Source of the DNA: a virus
IMG/VR virus record: IMGVR_UViG_3300025115_000007
Location: 2,708 to 66,707 of that record
DNA: 64,000 nucleotides
Direction: 5' to 3' (one strand)
Of the stretch, positions 4,504 to 25,759 are shown piece after piece (position 1 is the stretch's first letter; each line of letters starts with the position of its first letter). The notes under the pieces are model-generated. The model searched no databases. It saw only the letters and a list, made by a program, of their open reading frames with translations, and was not told the origin of the DNA. The translations under genes and the position numbers were made by a program.

Positions 4504-4568
4504 CTTTTATCTCCACAAATTTGATAGACCATACTATCATATTACAACACGTTTGTCAAGTAAATCTT

Positions 4569-4642
4569 TGGGTAACTGCCGGGAATCGAACCCGAGTGAA
4601 CAGGGCCACAGCCTGTGGCTTTACCACTAAGCTACAGTCACC
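4569..4642 (-). tRNA. tRNA-His(GTG)
   Basis: cloverleaf with G-1 and C73, CCA. Confidence 0.9.
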
Positions 4643-4648
4643 ATAATA

Positions 4649-4745
4649 TAGTGGTGAGGAATCGAACCTCACAGTAAACAGCCTTATCCTCTGTACTTCT
4701 GGCACTGGGTTCCTTTGGATAAGTGTGCCTCTGTTTACTCCTCCA
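4649..4745 (-). ncRNA. tRNA-like RNA with T-arm and internal pseudoknot
   Basis: TGAGG-TTCGATT-CCTCA T-arm; stem GTAAACAG/CTGTTTAC enclosing crossing pairs GGCAC/GTGCC and TTATCC/GGATAA. Confidence 0.5.
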
Positions 4746-4753
4746 GGACGTTT

Positions 4754-4828
4754 TGGAGCGTCCGGCCGGAGTTCCACCGGCATCTTACACCTTGGAAGGG
4801 TGGAGCCTTAGTATTAGACCACGAACAC
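4754..4828 (-). tRNA. tRNA-Gly(TCC)
   Basis: loop CT-TCC-AA, U73, CCA; atypical T loop. Confidence 0.75.
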
Positions 4829-4836
4829 TGATGTTT

Positions 4837-4911
4837 TGGAGCGGGGCACCAGACTCAAACTGGTATCTGATTGACTGGCGGTCAACCGCTTTATCATTAA
4901 GCTAACCCCGC
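4837..4911 (-). tRNA. tRNA-Gly(GCC)
   Basis: loop CC-GCC-AG, U73, CCA. Confidence 0.75.
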
Positions 4912-4993
4912 TGTGATCCTATGTTGGCGGATGGGTTGGTAAGTCCGGAAGCTCCGGTATTCTACAACCAATCGATGCACCAACTTGTGTATT

Positions 4994-5066
4994 TGGTAGC
5001 GGCGGACAGAATCGAACTGTCTAAGATGGCGTTATGAGCGCCACTGGGCTTCCAAGCCTCGCCGCA
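4994..5066 (-). tRNA. tRNA-Met(CAT), short D-arm, 1:72 mismatch (initiator-like)
   Basis: loop CT-CAT-AA, GTTCGATT T loop, CCA. Confidence 0.7.
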
Positions 5067-5073
5067 ATAAATC

Positions 5074-5148
5074 TGGTAGAGCATCCGGATCTTGAAACCG
5101 GACCTATGGCTTGAAGGGCCATTGTACTGACCTTTATACTAATGCTCT
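5074..5148 (-). tRNA. tRNA-Glu(TTC)
   Basis: stem ATGGC/GCCAT, loop CC-TTC-AA, CCA. Confidence 0.7.
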
Positions 5149-5356: not shown

Positions 5357-5700
5357 ATGCTCCTCAAACTGTCTAAAAATTCATCAGTATCCATATCATT
5401 ACCGACTTTCCAATATTCTATTAAAAGCTCCTTGTTTAAGTCAATCCAGTTCAGTACTTCCGCAAACTCCTCAACTTTTATCTTTACCTTGCCTTCCATA
5501 ACCTTCTTGGTGACAATGGAAACTGTGAAACAGTCATCTGTTCTGAACTTACCATATACATTGCTCACCTTTATACGCGGAGAATGAGCCAATTCTTTAT
5601 CCCCTTGGCTATACACATGTACATGAACCTTCTTAATACCGGTGCGTCGGCTTCCAATATTAGCAAACTCATACAGGTATTTTTCCACACTACACCCCAT
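5353..5700 (-). CDS. DUF4160-like protein
   Basis: HSPRIKV ... WIDLNKELLIEYW pattern; start trimmed. Confidence 0.55.
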   Translation of the reverse strand: MGCSVEKYLYEFANIGSRRTGIKKVHVHVYSQGDKELAHSPRIKVSNVYGKFRTDDCFTVSIVTKKVMEGKVKIKVEEFAEVLNWIDLNKELLIEYWKVGNDMDTDEFLDSLRSI

Positions 5701-6013: not shown

Positions 6014-6185
6014 TTTTGGCCTCCTTGATTGATATTTTATAGCATTCCAGCATCGGTCTATATTTACCATGAGCTACCGCGTTACCTTTCCTGTCCTTCA
6101 AGAACCAGACAGTGCCACCAACATGGACGCGATCAATATACCAACCTGTTTTCTCATCTCTCTTGACCGTCTTAACCGATGACAT
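6003..6185 (-). CDS. hypothetical early protein
   Basis: RBS GAGGTG and TTGACA-17-TATAAT at ~6214-6242. Confidence 0.55.
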   Translation of the reverse strand: MSSVKTVKRDEKTGWYIDRVHVGGTVWFLKDRKGNAVAHGKYRPMLECYKISIKEAKNVG

Positions 6186-6271
6186 ATCAACACCTCTCTT
6201 ATTTGTTGGAAGTATTATATCATAATATCTATACCATGTCAAGAAAAATGTTATGTAATGGATTCGATGGT

Positions 6272-20837: not shown

Positions 20838-22044
20838 CTGACGTATCCACTTGATTAGGTGGACTCTTTTTTATTGGCTGCGCCCCAGCCAACATTCAGC
20901 TTGGTCAATGCAAAGGTCACTATGTTGCTAGCTGCCAGGATATCCCTGTCATGGGTTGCATCACAGGCGGAGCAGGTCCATAATCTATCCCCTAATTCCA
21001 ATTCTTGGTTCACTAACCCACAGACACAGGTCTTGGAGGAAGCATCAAATCGGCCGATGGTAATCACTTGTTTACCGGCTTCCTTGGTCTTATATTCCAG
21101 TATTTGCCGAAAAGTGTACCAGGATGTATCCCCTATTGACCTGGACATATAGGTCTGACCATTCTGCATCATTGACCTAATGGAGAGGTCCTCAATGGCA
21201 AACGAGCCGTGGCCTTGGTTCTCAACCAGGCTGTTTACCAGCTTATGTAGGAAGTCCTTTCTTCTGTTATTGACCTTTTTATATATCCGAGCCACTTTGG
21301 TTCTTTGTTTATTGTAGTTCTTACTGGCCTTAGTCCTCCGACTAAGGTTCTGTTGAGCCACCGCCAGGTGTTTGAGTGATTTGGCTAAGTTCCTTGGATT
21401 GTCTATTTTGGTACCGTTAGAAAGGGTTGCATAGTGGGTAAGGCCTAGGTCAATACCTACCATGGTTTCACTGGAAACCGGTTTTGGTTCTGGTTCAACC
21501 AATCCATTTTCATATAGGATGCAGGCGTAGTATTTACCAGTGGAAGACCTTGATATGGTTGCATTCCGAAGGTCATAATGTTCCTGGAATTTGAACCGGT
21601 CCTTGAACCGAACCTTACCCAATTTTGGCAGGGTAAGAGTTTTACCAACCACATCAATACTCTGTGGACATCGAAAGGTCCGTTTAGCTTGCTTTTTGGA
21701 TTTGAACTTGGGGAAACCATTGTTCTTCCGGAAGAAATGGCTAAAGGCTGATTCCAGGTCAACCAACACCTGCTGGAGACATTGGGCATTGACTTCCTTA
21801 AGCCATTCCTTTTCCTTCTTATGTTCAGTGAGCATTGAGGAAATAGTAACCCGACTTAACCCCCTTTTATGTTCGGTGTAGTAGGCTATCTTCTTCTCCA
21901 AGGCCCAATTATAGATGTATCGGCAACAATCAAATGTATGGTCAAGTGAACTGGCCTGTGTTTTGGTCGGATATAACCTTATCTTTATCGCTCGGAGCAT
22001 AACCTATCCAAAATAGTAAATTTGTGTAGACACTCCTATTTATA
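20838..22044 (-). mobile_element. solo tnpB (IS1341-like) element 1
   Basis: tnpB without tnpA; 3' hairpins GGCTG/CAGCC and TCCAC/GTGGA ending TACGTCAG; left end not resolved. Confidence 0.65.
20855..22000 (-). CDS. tnpB: TnpB RNA-guided nuclease
   Basis: K.RLYPT, GIDLG, IEDL, SSKTC..CG, DRD..AA.NI; RuvC D/E/D intact. Confidence 0.95.
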   Translation of the reverse strand: MLRAIKIRLYPTKTQASSLDHTFDCCRYIYNWALEKKIAYYTEHKRGLSRVTISSMLTEHKKEKEWLKEVNAQCLQQVLVDLESAFSHFFRKNNGFPKFKSKKQAKRTFRCPQSIDVVGKTLTLPKLGKVRFKDRFKFQEHYDLRNATISRSSTGKYYACILYENGLVEPEPKPVSSETMVGIDLGLTHYATLSNGTKIDNPRNLAKSLKHLAVAQQNLSRRTKASKNYNKQRTKVARIYKKVNNRRKDFLHKLVNSLVENQGHGSFAIEDLSIRSMMQNGQTYMSRSIGDTSWYTFRQILEYKTKEAGKQVITIGRFDASSKTCVCGLVNQELELGDRLWTCSACDATHDRDILAASNIVTFALTKLNVGWGAANKKEST

Positions 22045-22097
22045 AGAGACTGATGCTTCCGGAGACACTTTTAGCTAAAATAGTGAAAATATTTTTG

Positions 22098-22138
22098 TAT
22101 AAATAAAGGTTGACAGATTTATTGCAATATGCTACAAT
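22098..22138 (+). promoter_or_regulatory. tandem late (TATAAATA) and sigma70 promoters for tmRNA/tRNA operon
   Basis: TATAAATA 22098-22105; TTGACA-17-TACAAT 22110-22138. Confidence 0.75.
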
Positions 22139-22214
22139 TAGCTAAAATGAAGGAGACAGTATATGAGCGCAGGAGGCATCCATGACATAAATTAACCTTA
22201 GGGGGTGATATGTT

Positions 22215-22379
22215 ATGAGTAAAGCAGCCAGTGGTGGCGGCAAAAAAATTGGCCGTCACAAAACACATTGTGCTCAGTACCGAGCCTCTGGACGACGGGA
22301 GAAGAACAAAGCCCGTGTGGCCCGTAAGATTGCAAAGATGCTGGCCAAAAAAAGCAAAAAGAAAGGGGGCGTGAATTAG
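22215..22379 (+). CDS. small basic protein (54 aa)
   Basis: MSKAASGGGKKIGRHKTHCAQYRASGRREKNKARVARKIAKMLAKKSKKKGGVN; RBS GGGGTGA; not in ORF track. Confidence 0.6.
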   Translation: MSKAASGGGKKIGRHKTHCAQYRASGRREKNKARVARKIAKMLAKKSKKKGGVN

Positions 22380-22725
22380 TTTCGACGGAGATAACTGAAA
22401 TTACAGGTGCATGTCGAGGTGTCTACTAGGCCTCGTAAAACCAGTAGAAAACCATAATCGCAGATAACTACGATTACGCTTACGCTGCCTAGACGGCGTA
22501 CATCATTATCGAGACTTTCTTACCGGGCTCTTTAATGGTGTCATTAAGGTAAGATAGCTTTAGTACCAGACCTTAGTGGGACTAAGGCGAAACAACATAA
22601 GGATGTTACTGGAAAATCTTAGCCTTTGAGAGTTTCCAGGTAACGAGAACAAAGCAAAGGAGAAGCATGTGGAAACTGTAATGACGTATTTACGGACGCC
22701 GGGGCAGAACCGGCCACGTCCACCA
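22367..22725 (+). ncRNA. ssrA: tmRNA, tag ADNYDYAYAA
   Basis: acceptor GGGCGTG/CACGTCC with G3-U70, ACCA end, TTCGAC 5' motif, tag frame 22460-22492. Confidence 0.93.
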
Positions 22726-22736
22726 AGGAAAGGAAT

Positions 22737-22811
22737 ATGATTATGAGAACGAACCTCACTACATTGCAACGCTATAACTGCCTGCCCACGTTTGGGAGAT
22801 GGAGGATATAG
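22737..22811 (+). CDS. putative attenuator leader peptide MIMRTNLTTLQRYNCLPTFGRWRI
   Basis: RBS AAGGAAAGGA, stop inside antiterminator strand. Confidence 0.75.
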   Translation: MIMRTNLTTLQRYNCLPTFGRWRI

Positions 22812-22837
22812 AGGTTCGTTCACAATCAGGTACATGG

Positions 22838-22877
22838 AACCCCTAAGTCCTCCAACGAGGCTTAGGGGTTTTGTTTT
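22838..22877 (+). terminator. intrinsic terminator of attenuator
   Basis: AACCCCTAAGT/GCTTAGGGGTT stem plus TTTTGTTTT. Confidence 0.85.
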
Positions 22878-22964
22878 GGCTGAGTGGCGTAATTTGGCAG
22901 ATGCGCTCGCCTCAAGAGCGAGTGGCCTATGGCCGTGAGAGTTCGAGTCTCTCCTCAGCTACCA
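22878..22964 (+). tRNA. tRNA-Leu(CAA)
   Basis: type II cloverleaf, CCA. Confidence 0.92.
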
Positions 22965-22973
22965 GGATAACAT

Positions 22974-23059
22974 GGGAGACTGGCGTAACTGGCAGCCGCG
23001 CTGGTCTTAGGAACCAGTGGTTTAGCACCGTCAGGGTTCAACTCCCTGGTCTCCCACCA
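22974..23059 (+). tRNA. tRNA-Leu(TAG)
   Basis: type II cloverleaf, CCA. Confidence 0.92.
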
Positions 23060-23068
23060 AAAATAAAT

Positions 23069-23153
23069 GGAAGTGTTGAGCAGGTGGTGGGCTCCGCTGA
23101 CTGTAAATCAGCCGTCTATGACCGTCATGGTTCGATTCCATGCACTTCCACCA
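23069..23153 (+). tRNA. tRNA-Tyr(GTA)
   Basis: loop CT-GTA-AA, variable arm, CCA. Confidence 0.9.
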
Positions 23154-23160
23154 AACATAA

Positions 23161-23250
23161 GAGGTGAGTTCTCCGTGGCCGGCTGCAACCCGGCTGTCAT
23201 AAAATAAGCGGAGTGGCCGACGAGTGGTCCAAATCCACCTCATCTCTCCA
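23161..23250 (+). tRNA. non-canonical tRNA-Cys(GCA), 8/4 fold, no D-arm
   Basis: 8-bp acceptor, 4-bp T stem, U73-CCA, GCCGG-CTGCAAC-CCGGC. Confidence 0.6.
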
Positions 23251-23258
23251 GAACATAA

Positions 23259-23333
23259 TGCGTTGTGGCCGAAAGGACAGGCACCATACTGTTAATATGG
23301 GATAAGCAGGATCGTTACCTGCCAACGCAGCCA
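23259..23333 (+). tRNA. tRNA-Asn(GTT)
   Basis: loop CT-GTT-AA, G73, CCA. Confidence 0.88.
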
Positions 23334-23343
23334 ATAAGCATAT

Positions 23344-23417
23344 CGGAAATTGGTGTAGGGGTTGCATCCGTGGCCTGGGACCATGTGGAGATTGTTCGAC
23401 TCAATCATTTCCGACCA
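23344..23417 (+). tRNA. tRNA-Pro(TGG)
   Basis: C1-G72, loop CC-TGG-GA, CCA. Confidence 0.8.
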
Positions 23418-23422
23418 GATAC

Positions 23423-23498
23423 GCCGTGTGAGCAAGTCCAGTGATTGCGCCGGTCTGAAGAACCGGATAACTCCGTGCAACTCGGAAACACGGCACCA
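23423..23498 (+). tRNA. tRNA-Phe(GAA)
   Basis: loop CT-GAA-GA, CCA. Confidence 0.85.
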
Positions 23499-23503
23499 GA
23501 TAT

Positions 23504-23581
23504 GGGCCTGTAGTTCAAATGGATGAACGTCCGGCTACGGACCGGAATGATATGTGGGTTCGAGTCCCATCGGGCCTTCCA
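23504..23581 (+). tRNA. tRNA-Arg(ACG)
   Basis: loop CT-ACG-GA, CCA. Confidence 0.88.
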
Positions 23582-23583
23582 TT

Positions 23584-23659
23584 GCCAGGGTAGTTTAACC
23601 GGTAAAACACGGTCCCCGTAAGACCGGTGATGAAAGTTCAAACCTTTCTCCTGGCTCCA
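23584..23659 (+). tRNA. tRNA-Thr(CGT)
   Basis: loop CC-CGT-AA, CCA. Confidence 0.82.
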
Positions 23660-23660
23660 A

Positions 23661-23737
23661 GCTGGCGTAGCTCAAGTAGGTAGAGCAAGGCCCCTGTAAG
23701 GCCGAGGTTGGGGGATCATGGCCCTCCGCCAGCTCCA
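23661..23737 (+). tRNA. tRNA-Thr(TGT)
   Basis: loop CC-TGT-AA, CCA. Confidence 0.8.
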
Positions 23738-23745
23738 GAACACAC

Positions 23746-23819
23746 GCTCTGTTAGTTCAGTGGTAGAACGCATCCTTGGTAAGGATGAAACGCTGGCTCG
23801 CTTCCAGCACGGAGCTCCA
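23746..23819 (+). tRNA. tRNA-Thr(GGT)
   Basis: loop TT-GGT-AA, CCA. Confidence 0.85.
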
Positions 23820-23825
23820 GTATAT

Positions 23826-23899
23826 TTAGGCGTAGGAGAATTGGTAAATCCGCCGGACTTTGAATCCGGAGACTGCTGGTTCGAGACCAGCCGCCTAAG
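23826..23899 (+). tRNA. tRNA-Gln(TTG)
   Basis: loop CT-TTG-AA, G73, CCA not encoded. Confidence 0.88.
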
Positions 23900-24018
23900 C
23901 ATGTTTCACATATGACACATCCCATATTGAATATGGTCATATGTTTCATATATAGAACATGACGTTTACAACAGTCTCAGGACACTGTAAATAGGTAAAA
24001 CTGTGTTAGGAGACTGTT

Positions 24019-24558
24019 ATGGCAAACGGAAAGGCAAAAGGTTCGTCCTGGGAGAGGGACATCGCCAGGTTATTCACCAAATGGATCACAGGGGTAGAGA
24101 AGCCCTACCTGTTCTGGCGCTCCCCGGCGAGCGGGGGACTCGGGACCATCAAAACCGCGGAAAATGTGTCTGGGGACATTATAGCCATTAAGCCGGAAGG
24201 TGAGTTCCTGACCAGGTTGTTTTCCATTGAGGCCAAGACCGGCTATCCCCATGCCTGTCTATTCAAGCACCTCCGGCCTGTAAAAAATGATGAGGTGGAA
24301 CAGTTCTGGAATCAATGTATTACAGGAGCCCGTGAGGACAATAAGTCCGGTATGCTCATCTTCAAGAAGAAAGGTAACCAGCCAATCATCGGGATTGAAC
24401 GTTCTGTATATGATCAATTGGTGGACTTAACCAGAGAGATGCCTAAGTGCATTTTGCTCAATTATACCAATGGCTTACCTGACCTGGTGCTCATGGACCT
24501 GGCTGAATTCCTGGTCAAGGTCACACCGGACATCATAAAGCGCCTAACCATCTACTGA
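24019..24558 (+). CDS. Holliday junction resolvase-like nuclease
   Basis: K.KGSSWER..A....RSP.SGG....GDI....IE.K....W.Q. Confidence 0.8.
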   Translation: MANGKAKGSSWERDIARLFTKWITGVEKPYLFWRSPASGGLGTIKTAENVSGDIIAIKPEGEFLTRLFSIEAKTGYPHACLFKHLRPVKNDEVEQFWNQCITGAREDNKSGMLIFKKKGNQPIIGIERSVYDQLVDLTREMPKCILLNYTNGLPDLVLMDLAEFLVKVTPDIIKRLTIY

Positions 24559-25759
24559 CGTATCACCCTTAGGTGGACTCTTTTTTATTGGCTGCGCCCC
24601 AGCCATTAGCTAGTTTGGTCAATGCGAAGGTCACTATATTCCGAGCTGCCAGTGTATCCCGGTCATGGGTTGTACCACAGGCAGAACAGGTCCATACCCT
24701 ATCCCCTAACCCCAACTCCTGGTTAACCACCCCACAGGTACAGGTCTTGGAGGAAGCATCAAACCGGCCCATGGTAACCACCTGCTTGCCGGCTTCTTTG
24801 GCCTTATATTCCAATATTTGACGGAATGTATACCAGGAAGCATCCCCTATTGCCCTAGACATATGGGTTTGACCTTTTTGCATCAACGTCTTAATGGAGA
24901 GGTCCTCTATGGCGAAGCTGCCGTAGTCTTGGTTCTCGACCAGGTTGTTCACCAGCTTGTGTAGGAAGTCCTTCCTCCGATTATTGACCTTTTCATATAT
25001 CCGAGCTACTTTAGCCCGTTGCTTATTGTAGTTCTTACTGGCCTTAGTCCTCCGGCTAAGGTTTTGTTGGGCCTTAGCTAGGTAATCAAGCGACTTTGCC
25101 AAGTTCCTTGGATTGTCTATTTTGGTGCTGTTAGAAAGGGTTGCATAGTGGATAAGGCCTAGGTCAATACCTATCATGGTTTCACTGGAAACCGGTTTTG
25201 GGGCTGGTTCAATCAACCCATTCTCATATAAAATGGAGGCATAATATTTACCGGCCGATCTTGATACTGTTGCGTTCCGGAGGTCATAATGATCCTGGAA
25301 TTTGAACCGGTCCTTGAATTTAACCTTACCAAGTTTTGGTAGTGTGAGAGTTTTACCTTCCACTCTAATCCTACTCACTATCCGGTAACTGTTTTTACAC
25401 GACCTCTTGGACTTGAACTTGGGAAATTTGTTGTTCTTCCGAAAGAAGTGGCTAAAAGCCGATTCGAGGTCGATAATGGCCTGTTGAAGGGCTATATTAC
25501 TAACCTCACCGAGCCATTCCTTCTCTTTCTTATGTTTGGTAAGCAGAGCGGAAATAGCTACCCAACCTAGACCCTTCTTGTGATCGGTATAATAGGCTAT
25601 CTTTTTCTCCAGAGCCCAGTTATAGACATACCGGCAGCATCCAAAATGCTTATCCATCAGTTCGGCCTGGTCTTTAGTTGGATATAACCTTACCTTTATA
25701 GCACGGAGCATAGTGTACCACCCTGTTGACGTAAAACTAAACTTCTACATCTATTTATA
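24555..25759 (-). mobile_element. solo tnpB element 2
   Basis: same 3' end motif as element 1 (..GATACGTCAG), overlapping resolvase stop; late promoter 25752-25759. Confidence 0.65.
24569..25711 (-). CDS. tnpB: TnpB RNA-guided nuclease
   Basis: close paralog of 20855..22000, catalytic residues intact. Confidence 0.95.
   Translation of the reverse strand: MLRAIKVRLYPTKDQAELMDKHFGCCRYVYNWALEKKIAYYTDHKKGLGWVAISALLTKHKKEKEWLGEVSNIALQQAIIDLESAFSHFFRKNNKFPKFKSKRSCKNSYRIVSRIRVEGKTLTLPKLGKVKFKDRFKFQDHYDLRNATVSRSAGKYYASILYENGLIEPAPKPVSSETMIGIDLGLIHYATLSNSTKIDNPRNLAKSLDYLAKAQQNLSRRTKASKNYNKQRAKVARIYEKVNNRRKDFLHKLVNNLVENQDYGSFAIEDLSIKTLMQKGQTHMSRAIGDASWYTFRQILEYKAKEAGKQVVTMGRFDASSKTCTCGVVNQELGLGDRVWTCSACGTTHDRDTLAARNIVTFALTKLANGWGAANKKEST

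What the first reader, a model, noticed from the sequence alone, without database searches (positions are those of the whole stretch)
22726..23899. Codon-panel attenuator: a leader peptide samples exactly the codons served by the downstream 12-tRNA array
Seen: RBS plus a 24-codon leader (22737-22811). Protector GAACGAACCTC/GAGGTTCGTTC (22747-57/22811-21), antiterminator GGAGGATATAGAGGTTC/GAACCCCTAAGTCCTCC (22801-17/22837-53) and terminator (22838-77) are mutually exclusive, as in trp/his attenuators. The 15 codons in the stall window (22749-22793) are ACG AAC CTC ACT ACA TTG CAA CGC TAT AAC TGC CTG CCC ACG TTT. They use only the nine amino acids of the array (L,Y,C,N,P,F,R,T,Q) and include all nine, with isoacceptor matches: ACG/ACA/ACT for three Thr tRNAs, TTG/CTG for two Leu, CGC, CAA, TAT, AAC, TTT, TGC (CCC and CTC need wobble). 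Those amino acids own 30 of 61 codons, so chance is roughly 0.5^15 before requiring full coverage. Inference: loss of any of these host tRNAs (anticodon nucleases, starvation) stalls the ribosome and induces the replacement tRNAs, an OR-gate anti-defence sensor. I know of no description of this.
Basis: partly seen in the sequence, partly recalled or inferred. Interest (0 to 1): 0.95.

Follow-up and report, generated by a model that had tools for sequence, protein, structure and literature searches.

The report
Codon-matched leader attenuator before phage tRNAs
Between a phage's tmRNA gene and a row of tRNA genes sits a tiny gene, spelled in the amino acids those tRNAs carry and wired to a switchable transcription stop, so the phage probably makes these tRNAs only when ribosomes read those codons slowly.

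Summary
The 152-nt spacer between a phage tmRNA gene (22367-22725) and the first tRNA (22878) carries a Shine-Dalgarno site and a 24-codon ORF. It also carries three mutually exclusive helices of about equal strength: 1:2 at -25.2, 2:3 at -22.8 and terminator 3:4 at -24.8 kcal/mol.

Both layers beat chance. The 2:3 pairing was reached in 0.05% of shuffles. A run of 15 or more residues from the array's nine amino acids arose in 1.5e-5 of dinucleotide shuffles. It is the longest run among 574 small ORFs in the window (16 against 11).

Ribosome-masked folding puts the 3' edge of the stall-sensitive zone one codon from the end of that run. No promoter-like site lies between the terminator and the array.

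Caveats:
- ARAGORN tRNAs, and Phe only at a relaxed threshold. The Cys-like element is never called.
- Three of the 16 codons need non-standard wobble or have no array tRNA.
- No homologue of the leader was found, so there is no covariation evidence and no RNA data.
- The anti-defence "OR gate" reading is untested.

Five literature searches found no published description. This scan's earlier AI notes report the same kind of element on other phage DNA.

The parts
22098..22105 (+). TATAAATA motif. I recall this as the T4-type late-promoter consensus. It lies just upstream of the unit.
   Evidence: 18 copies in the window against 4.3 expected. This is the only + strand copy between 22098 and 42852.
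22110..22138 (+). Sigma-70-like promoter TTGACA-17-TACAAT with a TG extension. It is the likely start of the tmRNA/leader/tRNA transcript.
   Evidence: 11 of 12 matches, and the only + strand promoter-like site in 21900-24700.
22215..22379 (+). 54-aa very basic ORF of unknown function. It overlaps the 5' end of the tmRNA gene.
   Evidence: No Pfam family at E<=0.1.
22367..22725 (+). Phage-encoded tmRNA gene ending in CCA. My reading of the tag frame is ADNYDYAYAA*.
   Evidence: RF00023, 138.9 bits, model positions 1-374. Sequence. ARAGORN did not call it.
22726..22734 (+). Shine-Dalgarno-like AGGAAAGGA, directly after the tmRNA CCA.
   Evidence: sequence. It is unpaired in the MFE fold.
22737..22811 (+). 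Leader ORF of 24 codons plus TAG. The stop codon lies inside helix region 2.
22746..22793 (+). Codon panel of 16 consecutive codons (RTNLTTLQRYNCLPTF). It uses exactly the nine amino acids assigned to the downstream array.
   Evidence: Only 2 of 167,960 nine-amino-acid sets give a run of 16 or more.
22747..22757 (+). Region 1, the 5' arm of the protector helix 1:2, inside the leader ORF.
   Evidence: pair list. Shuffle P=0.0055.
22800..22821 (+). Region 2. Positions 22811-22821 pair with region 1. Positions 22800-22817 pair with region 3 as the antiterminator.
   Evidence: 2:3 alone -22.8 kcal/mol. (P=0.0005).
22834..22877 (+). Intrinsic terminator. Region 3 is 22834-22854, region 4 runs to 22874, and the run UUUUGUUUU ends at 22877, one base before the first tRNA.
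   Evidence: -24.8 kcal/mol..
22878..23900 (+). tRNA array: Leu(caa), Leu(tag), Tyr(gta), [Cys-like], Asn(gtt), Pro(tgg), Phe(gaa, near threshold), Arg(acg), Thr(cgt), Thr(tgt), Thr(ggt), Gln(ttg).
23161..23250 (+). Non-canonical tRNA-like element. It has an 8-bp acceptor stem, a UCCA end and the anticodon loop CUGCAAC (GCA, Cys).
   Evidence: Fold. Not called by ARAGORN even at -ps80 or by Rfam at E<=10.
23423..23498 (+). tRNA-Phe(gaa) with a 4-bp T stem and an atypical T loop.
   Evidence: ARAGORN at -ps95 draws a cloverleaf. Fold. Not called at default settings or by Rfam at E<=10.

Best explanation
This is a ribosome-mediated (leader-peptide) transcription attenuator that gates a phage tRNA array.

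Proposed sequence of events (all inferred from anatomy):
- Transcription starts at the promoter(s) near 22100-22138 and passes the small basic ORF and the tmRNA gene. It then enters a 152-nt leader.
- A ribosome loads at the Shine-Dalgarno site directly after the tmRNA CCA and reads a 24-codon ORF.
- If decoding is fast, the ribosome reaches the TAG inside region 2 and masks it. With no translation at all, region 1 holds region 2 instead. In both cases region 3 pairs with region 4, and RNA polymerase stops at the U run one base before tRNA-Leu.
- If the ribosome lags anywhere in codons 1-18, region 1 is covered and region 2 is free. The 16-bp antiterminator 2:3 then forms before region 4 is made, and the polymerase reads into the 12 tRNA genes.

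Sixteen consecutive codons of that zone are spelled in exactly the nine amino acids assigned to the array. The leader would therefore work as a test strip for those tRNAs. It would give demand-driven, self-limiting supply, because new phage tRNAs speed decoding and restore termination. I read it as an integrator of decoding speed over a codon panel rather than a strict OR gate.

What is shown and what is inferred:
- Shown by computation: the ORF, the helices, their balance and significance, the amino-acid match, and the lack of an internal promoter-like site.
- Inferred: translation of the leader, termination efficiency, kinetic switching, and the physiological signal.
For: 1. Anatomy is exact: Shine-Dalgarno site, ORF, and stop codon within region 2.
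2. The three mutually exclusive helices have nearly equal energies: -25.2, -22.8 and -24.8 kcal/mol. The whole leader folds with z=-3.5 against shuffles.
3. The 2:3 complementarity was reached in 1 of 2000 shuffles of the 38-nt segment, 0.35% for the whole upstream part. For 1:2 it was 0.55%.
4. Masking a ribosome footprint at each A-site codon makes the nascent RNA (to 22858) fold 15-16 bp of antiterminator for codons 22737-22788 and none from 22791 on. With no ribosome it folds 26 bp of 1:2 and no 2:3. The sensitive zone therefore ends one codon before the end of the 16-residue run (22793).
5. The amino-acid match is far beyond chance:
   - The run of 16 is the longest among 574 small ORFs in the window, the next being 11.
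   - Dinucleotide shuffles give a run of 15 or more in 1.5e-5.
   - The local-composition shuffle gives 3e-5, and the other frames give 10/16 and 7/16.
   - At phage protein composition (41% of residues in the set) 18 or more of 23 has binomial P=2.8e-4.
   - Only 2 of 167,960 nine-amino-acid sets give a run of 16 or more. tRNA sets of seven other blocks (one in this window, six in other loci) score 3-8 of 23.
6. It also holds with tool-called tRNAs only: 7 amino acids, P=0.0067 or 5e-4; 8 amino acids, P=0.0019. An unbiased pipeline using ARAGORN sets gave P<=0.002.
7. At codon level 13 of 16 are readable by array anticodons, P about 1e-3. Three different Thr codons match the three Thr isoacceptors.
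8. No + strand promoter-like site or TATAAATA motif lies between 22139 and the end of the array. The terminator's U run abuts the first tRNA.
9. In the 58-block survey only 4 blocks have a terminator-like hairpin abutting the first tRNA. The two of these that head multi-tRNA arrays of mixed isotype (this one and L131:5650) hold the two best-matching small ORFs of all 58 blocks.
Against: - No homologue of the leader was found. Searches were: phage records near and distant, exact pattern in viral contigs, a tRNA-anchored pattern, and the scan's own index. There is therefore no conservation or covariation evidence.
- The closest relative with an array (L010, 60% identity in the neighbouring PDDEXK gene) drives its array from a plain TTGACA-17-TATAAT promoter with no leader.
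- In 19 of 58 surveyed blocks the tRNAs directly follow a protein gene. This phage's own second block (5148 down to 4570, minus strand) also has no leader.
- The regulatory codons are dispersed, 1-4 per amino acid, and not in tandem runs as in classical attenuators (recalled). Sensitivity to partial shortage of one tRNA may be low.
- AGA, CTC and CCC are not read by array tRNAs under standard wobble.
- The exact nine-of-nine match depends on a Cys-like element that neither ARAGORN (down to -ps80) nor Rfam (E<=10) recognises, and on a Phe tRNA called only at a relaxed threshold.
- On the full-length RNA the terminator is the MFE in every masked state. Read-through therefore rests on untested kinetics.
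- The L131 parallel is weak: P=0.011-0.086 by dinucleotide shuffle. That array also has promoter-like repeats between its tRNAs.
- The host is unknown. There is no evidence on translation, termination or expression.
Confidence: 0.6

Rival explanations
1. The second hairpin is simply the intrinsic terminator of the tmRNA gene, and the first is a processing or stability hairpin of the tmRNA-tRNA precursor. On this reading the small ORF and its composition are coincidental. The tRNAs are made by leaky read-through.
For: A tmRNA gene ends 12 nt before the ORF. In relatives L018 and L165-L167 the tmRNA is followed at once by a similar Shine-Dalgarno site and a protein gene, so the SD/ATG here could be a remnant. 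A 24-codon open frame alone is not unusual. No homologue shows conservation.
Against: This reading does not explain several results:
- the 2:3 alternative helix (P=0.0005);
- the balanced energies;
- the stop codon sitting in region 2;
- the coincidence of the stall-sensitive zone with the run;
- the amino-acid match (1.5e-5 to 3e-5).
A constitutive terminator abutting the first tRNA with no promoter after it would silence 12 genes.
Confidence: 0.15
2. It is a real translation-coupled attenuator, but it reports general translation capacity (ribosome availability, coupling, antibiotic-like or stress-induced slowing) rather than the specific tRNAs of the array. The composition match would be secondary.
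For: The helices and geometry work for any cause of ribosome lag. A bacterial tRNA array is known to be induced when translation is impaired in general (PMC8421152, abstract read). A tmRNA, a general rescue factor, is co-transcribed.
Against: A general sensor needs no particular amino acids. Yet the run uses exactly the array's nine. Only 2 of 167,960 nine-amino-acid sets do as well, and isoacceptor-level matches are enriched (P about 1e-3).
Confidence: 0.15
3. This is the first reader's specific reading: an anti-defence OR gate. Cleavage of any one of the host tRNAs by an anticodon nuclease stalls the leader ribosome and switches on nuclease-resistant replacement tRNAs.
For: It uses the same anatomy as the main reading. 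Complete loss of one tRNA would stall even at a single codon. Phage tRNAs are reported to rescue infection from tRNA-cleaving defences (PMC10264068, PMC11464382, PMC11555353; search listing and abstract starts only).
Against: Nothing in the sequence points to nucleases rather than ordinary shortage or host shut-off. I did not test whether the array tRNAs carry anticodon-loop changes expected for nuclease evasion. The host and its defences are unknown. The phage's other tRNAs (8 elsewhere) are not gated this way.
Confidence: 0.15

Closest known systems
Leader-peptide transcription attenuators of amino-acid operons (trp, his, leu, thr, ilvGMEDA type). This is textbook knowledge recalled by me. 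The general description is in PMC1183508, of which I saw the abstract start only.
   Same: Both have a short ORF with its own Shine-Dalgarno site and 1:2 / 2:3 / 3:4 mutually exclusive helices. In both, the stop codon is placed so that a terminating ribosome masks region 2. Both have a GC-rich terminator with a U run directly before the regulated genes, and regulatory codons that relate to what the operon supplies.
   Different: The regulated genes here are tRNAs, not biosynthetic enzymes. The leader samples nine amino acids once to four times each, instead of a tandem run of one or two. It is on a phage and is co-transcribed behind a tmRNA. No Rfam family other than tRNA matched this stretch better than E=0.13; the only match over the leader itself (22782-22885) was Pseudomon-1 at E=9.2.
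Inducible supernumerary tRNA array (trn operon, L-array) of Anabaena sp. PCC 7120. PMC8421152, abstract read. PMC10272220, title and abstract start only.
   Same: An extra tRNA array is silent by default and switched on when translation is impaired.
   Different: That control is attributed to a transcriptional repressor, TrcR, by the title and abstract start of PMC10272220. It sits on a bacterial megaplasmid. I saw no mention of a leader peptide or terminator switch, but I did not read the full texts.
T-box riboswitches (recalled).
   Same: An RNA leader with a terminator/antiterminator choice reports on the tRNA pool.
   Different: T-boxes bind uncharged tRNA directly and need no translation. 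Here there is an ORF and no T-box-like match in Rfam at E<=10.
Phage tRNAs as counter-defence against tRNA-cleaving immunity: PMC10264068, PMC11464382, PMC11555353 (search listing and abstract starts only).
   Same: Phage-borne tRNAs replace host tRNAs that become limiting during infection.
   Different: From what I saw, those reports concern the tRNAs themselves and not a sensor that regulates their transcription.

Membership tests
Ribosome-mediated (leader-peptide) transcription attenuator | A short ORF with a ribosome-binding site lies in the 5' leader of the regulated genes. | tested here: met
   AGGAAAGGA at 22726-22734 and a 24-codon ORF at 22737-22811. The Shine-Dalgarno site is unpaired in the MFE fold.
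Ribosome-mediated (leader-peptide) transcription attenuator | An intrinsic terminator lies between the leader ORF and the regulated genes. | tested here: met
   Hairpin 22834-22874 at -24.8 kcal/mol, plus UUUUGUUUU ending at 22877. The first tRNA starts at 22878. The simple consensus scan did not list it; I assume the stem falls outside its stated limits (at most 20 pairs counted, loop 3-8).
Ribosome-mediated (leader-peptide) transcription attenuator | An antiterminator helix is mutually exclusive with the terminator. | tested here: met
   22800-22817 pairs with 22837-22854: 16 bp, -22.8 kcal/mol. It was reached in 0.05% of 2000 shuffles.
Ribosome-mediated (leader-peptide) transcription attenuator | An upstream helix (1:2) sequesters the antiterminator strand and overlaps the ORF, so that a stalled ribosome frees region 2. 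| tested here: met
   The core 22747-22757 / 22811-22821 is 11 bp within a -25.2 kcal/mol structure. Shuffle P=0.0055. Footprint masking switches the fold.
Ribosome-mediated (leader-peptide) transcription attenuator | The stop codon is placed so that a terminating ribosome masks region 2. | tested here: met
   TAG at 22809-22811 lies inside region 2. A masked fold at the stop gives no 2:3 pairs and 16 bp of 3:4.
Ribosome-mediated (leader-peptide) transcription attenuator | Regulatory codons are cognate to the product of the operon and usually form tandem runs. | tested here: inconclusive
   Cognate in a new sense: 16 consecutive codons use exactly the array's nine amino acids. They are not in tandem runs, and 3 of 16 codons are not read by array anticodons under standard wobble.
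Ribosome-mediated (leader-peptide) transcription attenuator | Read-through responds to translation of the leader. | not testable with these tools
   This needs reporter, Term-seq or in vitro coupled assays.
Rfam-curated RNA families (which, as I recall, include leader families such as Trp, His, Leu and Thr leaders) | A match to a covariance model over the leader. | tested here: not met
   cmscan of 22700-23950 at E<=10 listed tRNAs, mascRNA-menRNA, YrlA, tmRNA_permuted, Pseudomon-1 and Tymo_tRNA-like only. Over the leader itself there was only Pseudomon-1 at E=9.2. That leader families are in the library is my recollection, not shown by a call.
T-box riboswitch | A specifier loop and a conserved T-box antiterminator bulge that bind tRNA. 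| tested here: not met
   No T-box match in Rfam at the gathering threshold or at E<=10. An ORF is present instead.
Canonical tRNA (for the two extra array members) | A cloverleaf recognised by tRNA finders. | tested here: inconclusive
   Phe(gaa) 23423-23498 is called by ARAGORN only at -ps95. The Cys-like element 23161-23250 is never called. Rfam at E<=10 calls neither. Both fold with an acceptor stem, a 7-nt anticodon loop and a CCA end.

The most novel reading that the evidence does not exclude
Some phages gate their tRNA arrays with 'codon-panel' leader attenuators. These are tiny ORFs that sample the very codons the array serves, so that the ribosome itself measures the usable tRNA pool during infection. 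The pool could fall through host shut-off, starvation or anticodon-nuclease defence. The phage would then switch on replacement tRNAs on demand, with built-in negative feedback. In this phage the element is coupled to a phage tmRNA, making a 'translation emergency' operon. This would be a new regulatory class for tRNA genes and a natural multi-input tRNA sensor.
Probability: 0.35. Interest if true: 0.9.

Novelty: new variant of a known kind. Interest (0 to 1): 0.8.

Why it matters
As far as I could find, tRNA genes are not known to be controlled by leader-peptide attenuation. Five full-text searches gave no such report.

If this element works as its anatomy says, three things follow:
- Phages can meter their own tRNA supply by letting a ribosome test-read the relevant codons.
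- That would explain how large tRNA arrays are expressed only when useful.
- It would link phage tRNAs, tmRNA and host tRNA depletion (including tRNA-cleaving defences) in one circuit.

It would also offer a compact natural sensor of the pool of several tRNAs at once, which could be tested directly with reporters. Earlier AI notes of this scan describe the same kind of element on other phage DNA, so it may be widespread.

Tried and rejected
Searches for homologues of the leader, all blank:
- megablast and blastn against 50,697 phage records found nothing, or only single tRNAs;
- an exact 29-nt leader pattern in viral contigs;
- a tRNA-Arg-anchored pattern;
- the scan's own look-alike index.

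Other routes to relatives:
- The neighbouring PDDEXK/RusA-like protein gave no relatives as a single query. It gave 155 loci as an alignment.
- The DNA polymerase gave 9 short loci that do not reach the tRNA region.
- A tag-region pattern found 4 tmRNA loci. Three are the L018 type, with a protein gene after the tmRNA. One looks like a bacterial attachment-site tmRNA and was not relevant.

Survey of relatives' arrays:
- It covered 58 blocks in the window plus 10 loci (L010, L049, L054, L118, L128, L131, L135, L169-L171).
- These were chosen from 171 loci because ARAGORN called two or more tRNAs in them.
- L133 was left out as a partial duplicate of L128. Two L128 blocks are identical to two L135 blocks. 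Loci with a single tRNA were left out.
- The output was cut, so counts come.
- Result: no general leader-array correlation could be tested because most blocks have no leader at all.

Rejected readings:
- T-box or other Rfam element.
- An internal promoter.
- A compositional artefact: the other frames and local shuffles argue against it.

Public sequencing runs: one DNA holder was listed, and it may be the source sample. No RNA holder was listed.

Supplementary files of papers were not opened. They may hold regulatory details of the Anabaena trn operon that I did not see.
Full report
**What the window is.** The window is most of a 66.7-kb virus record. It encodes a family-B DNA polymerase, 29% identical to cyanophage gp43. 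It also encodes a DnaB-like helicase and a ribonucleotide reductase, two TnpB-like genes and 18 ARAGORN tRNAs. Rfam finds a full-length tmRNA at 22367-22725, 138.9 bits. The finding's stretch is therefore the 152-nt spacer between the tmRNA's CCA end and the first tRNA of an array, followed by the array itself (22878-23900).

**Check of the observation.** Every coordinate holds.
- AGGAAAGGA follows the tmRNA CCA directly. ATG 22737 opens a 24-codon ORF, MIMRTNLTTLQRYNCLPTFGRWRI, ending in TAG at 22809-22811.
- The MFE fold of 22726-22880 is -52.3 kcal/mol, z=-3.5 against dinucleotide shuffles. It holds the 1:2 helix (core 22747-57/22811-21) and a long terminator hairpin 22834-22874 followed by U's up to 22877.
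- Folded alone, 1:2 is -25.2 and the terminator -24.8 kcal/mol. The antiterminator (22800-22817 with 22837-22854, 16 bp) is -22.8.
- In duplex-energy shuffles the 2:3 pairing was reached in 0.05% of 2000 shuffles of the 38-nt segment, or 0.35% when the whole upstream 108 nt is shuffled. The 1:2 pairing was reached in 0.55%.

**The array.**
- ARAGORN and Rfam call ten tRNAs: Leu caa, Leu tag, Tyr, Asn, Pro, Arg acg, Thr cgt, Thr tgt, Thr ggt and Gln.
- The 86-nt gap folds as a cloverleaf with anticodon GAA and an ACCA end. ARAGORN calls it tRNA-Phe once its threshold is relaxed by 5%.
- The 105-nt gap folds with an 8-bp acceptor stem, the loop CUGCAAC and a UCCA end. ARAGORN never calls it (down to -ps80), nor does Rfam at E<=10.
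- '12 tRNAs' therefore means 10 firm, 1 near threshold and 1 non-canonical. The scan's note e1-6191136 treats the Cys-like element separately.

**The codon panel.**
- The run of residues from the nine-amino-acid set is 16 long (22746-22793, RTNLTTLQRYNCLPTF). It uses exactly nine different amino acids, which are the array's nine.
- Among 574 ORFs of 20-40 aa in all six frames of the window, the next longest run is 11.
- Dinucleotide shuffles of the ORF body give a run of 15 or more in 1.5e-5, and a run of 16 or more in 0 of 200,000. They give 18 or more of 23 residues in the set in 1.1e-3.
- Keeping even the local composition of the 48 nt, 16/16 arises in 3e-5 and all nine present in 3e-6. The other two frames give 10/16 and 7/16.
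- In 45 long ORFs of the phage the nine amino acids make up 41% of residues.
- Of all 167,960 nine-amino-acid sets, 574 cover 18 or more of the 23 residues and 2 give a run of 16 or more. The tRNA sets of seven other blocks seen here (one in this window, six in other loci) score 3-8 of 23.
- With tool-called tRNAs only, seven amino acids give 16/23 (P=0.0067) and a run of 11 (P=5e-4). Eight amino acids give 17/23 (P=0.0019).
- At codon level 13 of 16 are readable by the array's anticodons under standard wobble (P about 1e-3). ACG, ACA and ACT match the three Thr isoacceptors. AGA, CTC and CCC are not covered.

**Geometry.** I masked a ribosome footprint, 15 nt 5' to 12 nt 3' of the first A-site base, at each codon. 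I then folded the nascent RNA up to the end of region 3.
- The antiterminator (15-16 bp) forms for A-site codons 22737 through 22788 and not from 22791 onwards.
- Without a ribosome, 26 bp of 1:2 form and no 2:3.
- With the ribosome at the stop codon, 2:3 cannot form.
- The computed stall-sensitive zone thus ends within one codon of the end of the 16-residue run. The five G-rich codons after it are region 2 itself.
- On the complete RNA the terminator is the MFE in all states, so the choice would be kinetic. I recall the same being accepted for trp.

**Transcription context.**
- The only + strand sigma-70-like site in 21900-24700 is TTGACA-17-TACAAT at 22110-22138, 11 of 12 matches.
- A TATAAATA motif lies at 22098. 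That motif occurs 18 times in the window against 4.3 expected.
- Neither type occurs between the terminator and the end of the array. The 12 tRNA genes therefore appear to depend on read-through of the terminator.

**Relatives.** I found no homologue of the leader. Through the neighbouring PDDEXK/RusA-like gene I fetched 155 loci, and tRNA regions from three large related records.
- In L010, the closest relative with an array, the array follows a plain TTGACA-17-TATAAT promoter.
- In L018 and three like it, the tmRNA is followed by a similar Shine-Dalgarno site and a protein gene.
- In a survey of 58 tRNA blocks (window plus 10 loci), 19 directly follow a protein gene. Only 4 have a terminator-like hairpin abutting the first tRNA.
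- Of those four, two head multi-tRNA arrays of mixed isotype: this one and L131:5650. These two hold the two best own-array-matching small ORFs of all 58 blocks, each P<=0.002 by mononucleotide shuffle, which is the floor of the test. The next best are 0.006 and 0.018.
- The L131 case is MKKQKRYIINYEKSNAIIAGNYKGIIL before Gly, Ala, a Tyr-like element, Ile, Lys, Asn and further tRNAs. It is weaker under a dinucleotide null (P=0.011-0.086). That array also has promoter-like repeats between its tRNAs.
- This phage's other tRNA block (minus strand, 5148 down to 4570) follows a protein gene without a leader.

**Interpretation.** The anatomy meets every structural criterion of a leader-peptide attenuator, and the amino-acid match is hard to ascribe to chance. 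I therefore favour a translation-coupled attenuator that lets transcription enter the tRNA array when the leader ribosome lags on the array's own codons (confidence 0.6). Because the codons are dispersed singles, I see it as an integrator of decoding speed with negative feedback rather than a clean OR gate. The rivals are:
- a plain tmRNA terminator plus a chance ORF (0.15);
- a general translation-status attenuator (0.15);

**Literature.** Five full-text searches found no account of leader-peptide attenuation of tRNA genes. The nearest in print is the Anabaena tRNA array induced on translational stress (PMC8421152, abstract), with the repressor TrcR (PMC10272220, listing only). Phage tRNAs as counter-defence are documented (PMC10264068, PMC11464382, PMC11555353; listings only). 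The scan's own earlier AI notes describe the same kind of element in at least eight other phage genomes. These are unchecked by me and are not independent evidence, but they suggest that the element is not unique to this contig.

**Limits.**
- There is no RNA or translation evidence.
- The host is unknown.
- Paper supplements were not opened.

Noticed in passing
window 22367-22725 (+): A phage-encoded tmRNA (Rfam 138.9 bits). My reading of its tag frame is ADNYDYAYAA*. ARAGORN missed it in the window but called the related tmRNA in L018 and L165-L167 (tag ADDYNYEYAMAA).
   Followed up: partly
window 22215-22379 (+); L131 5353-5445: A very basic small ORF (54 aa, no Pfam hit) lies just upstream of and overlapping the tmRNA 5' end. 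In L131 a 30-aa basic ORF (MPKGTPKKDGSGKG...) likewise precedes the leader-like ORF.
   Followed up: partly
L131 5490-5649: A second candidate leader. It is a 27-codon ORF rich in the amino acids of the following tRNAs. It is enclosed by a 17-bp inverted repeat and followed by a terminator-like hairpin plus a U run abutting tRNA-Gly.
   Followed up: partly
L131 5724-5778 and 5853-5900; L131 5904-5992: A near-identical promoter-like repeat (TTGACA/TTAACA ... GATATTAT) occurs twice between tRNAs. After the second copy lies an uncalled tRNA-like element with the loop CUGUAAA (GUA, Tyr) and a CCA end.
   Followed up: partly
L128 about 330-479 (same sequence in L135 about 5464-5613): The order is: promoter-like site, then a long hairpin that encloses a 16-codon ORF and ends in a U run directly before tRNA-Ile(tat). 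The ORF does not match the array (5 of 12 to 15 residues).
   Followed up: partly
L170 about 6150-6251: A TTGACA-type promoter-like site is followed by a 12-codon ORF (MIYKVNNKIHFS) whose end lies in the 5' arm of a -28 kcal/mol hairpin abutting two tRNA-Ser genes.
   Followed up: no
window 20855-22000 (-) and 24569-25711 (-): Two intact TnpB-like genes (OrfB_IS605 plus Cas12f-like TNB domains in the one I scanned) flank the tmRNA/leader/tRNA/PDDEXK island. Each has a minus-strand TATAAATA motif about 40 nt upstream of its start codon (22037-22044 and 25752-25759).
   Followed up: partly
window, whole: TATAAATA occurs 18 times against 4.3 expected, several copies in convergent pairs (858/947, 42848/42852, 50365/50450). 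I recall this motif as the T4-type late promoter.
   Followed up: no
window 4520-5148 (-): The second tRNA block (Glu, Met, Gly, Gly, a 97-nt uncalled element, His) starts at the stop codon of a protein gene. After tRNA-His comes a TTGACA-17-TAGTAT promoter-like site for the next gene.
   Followed up: no
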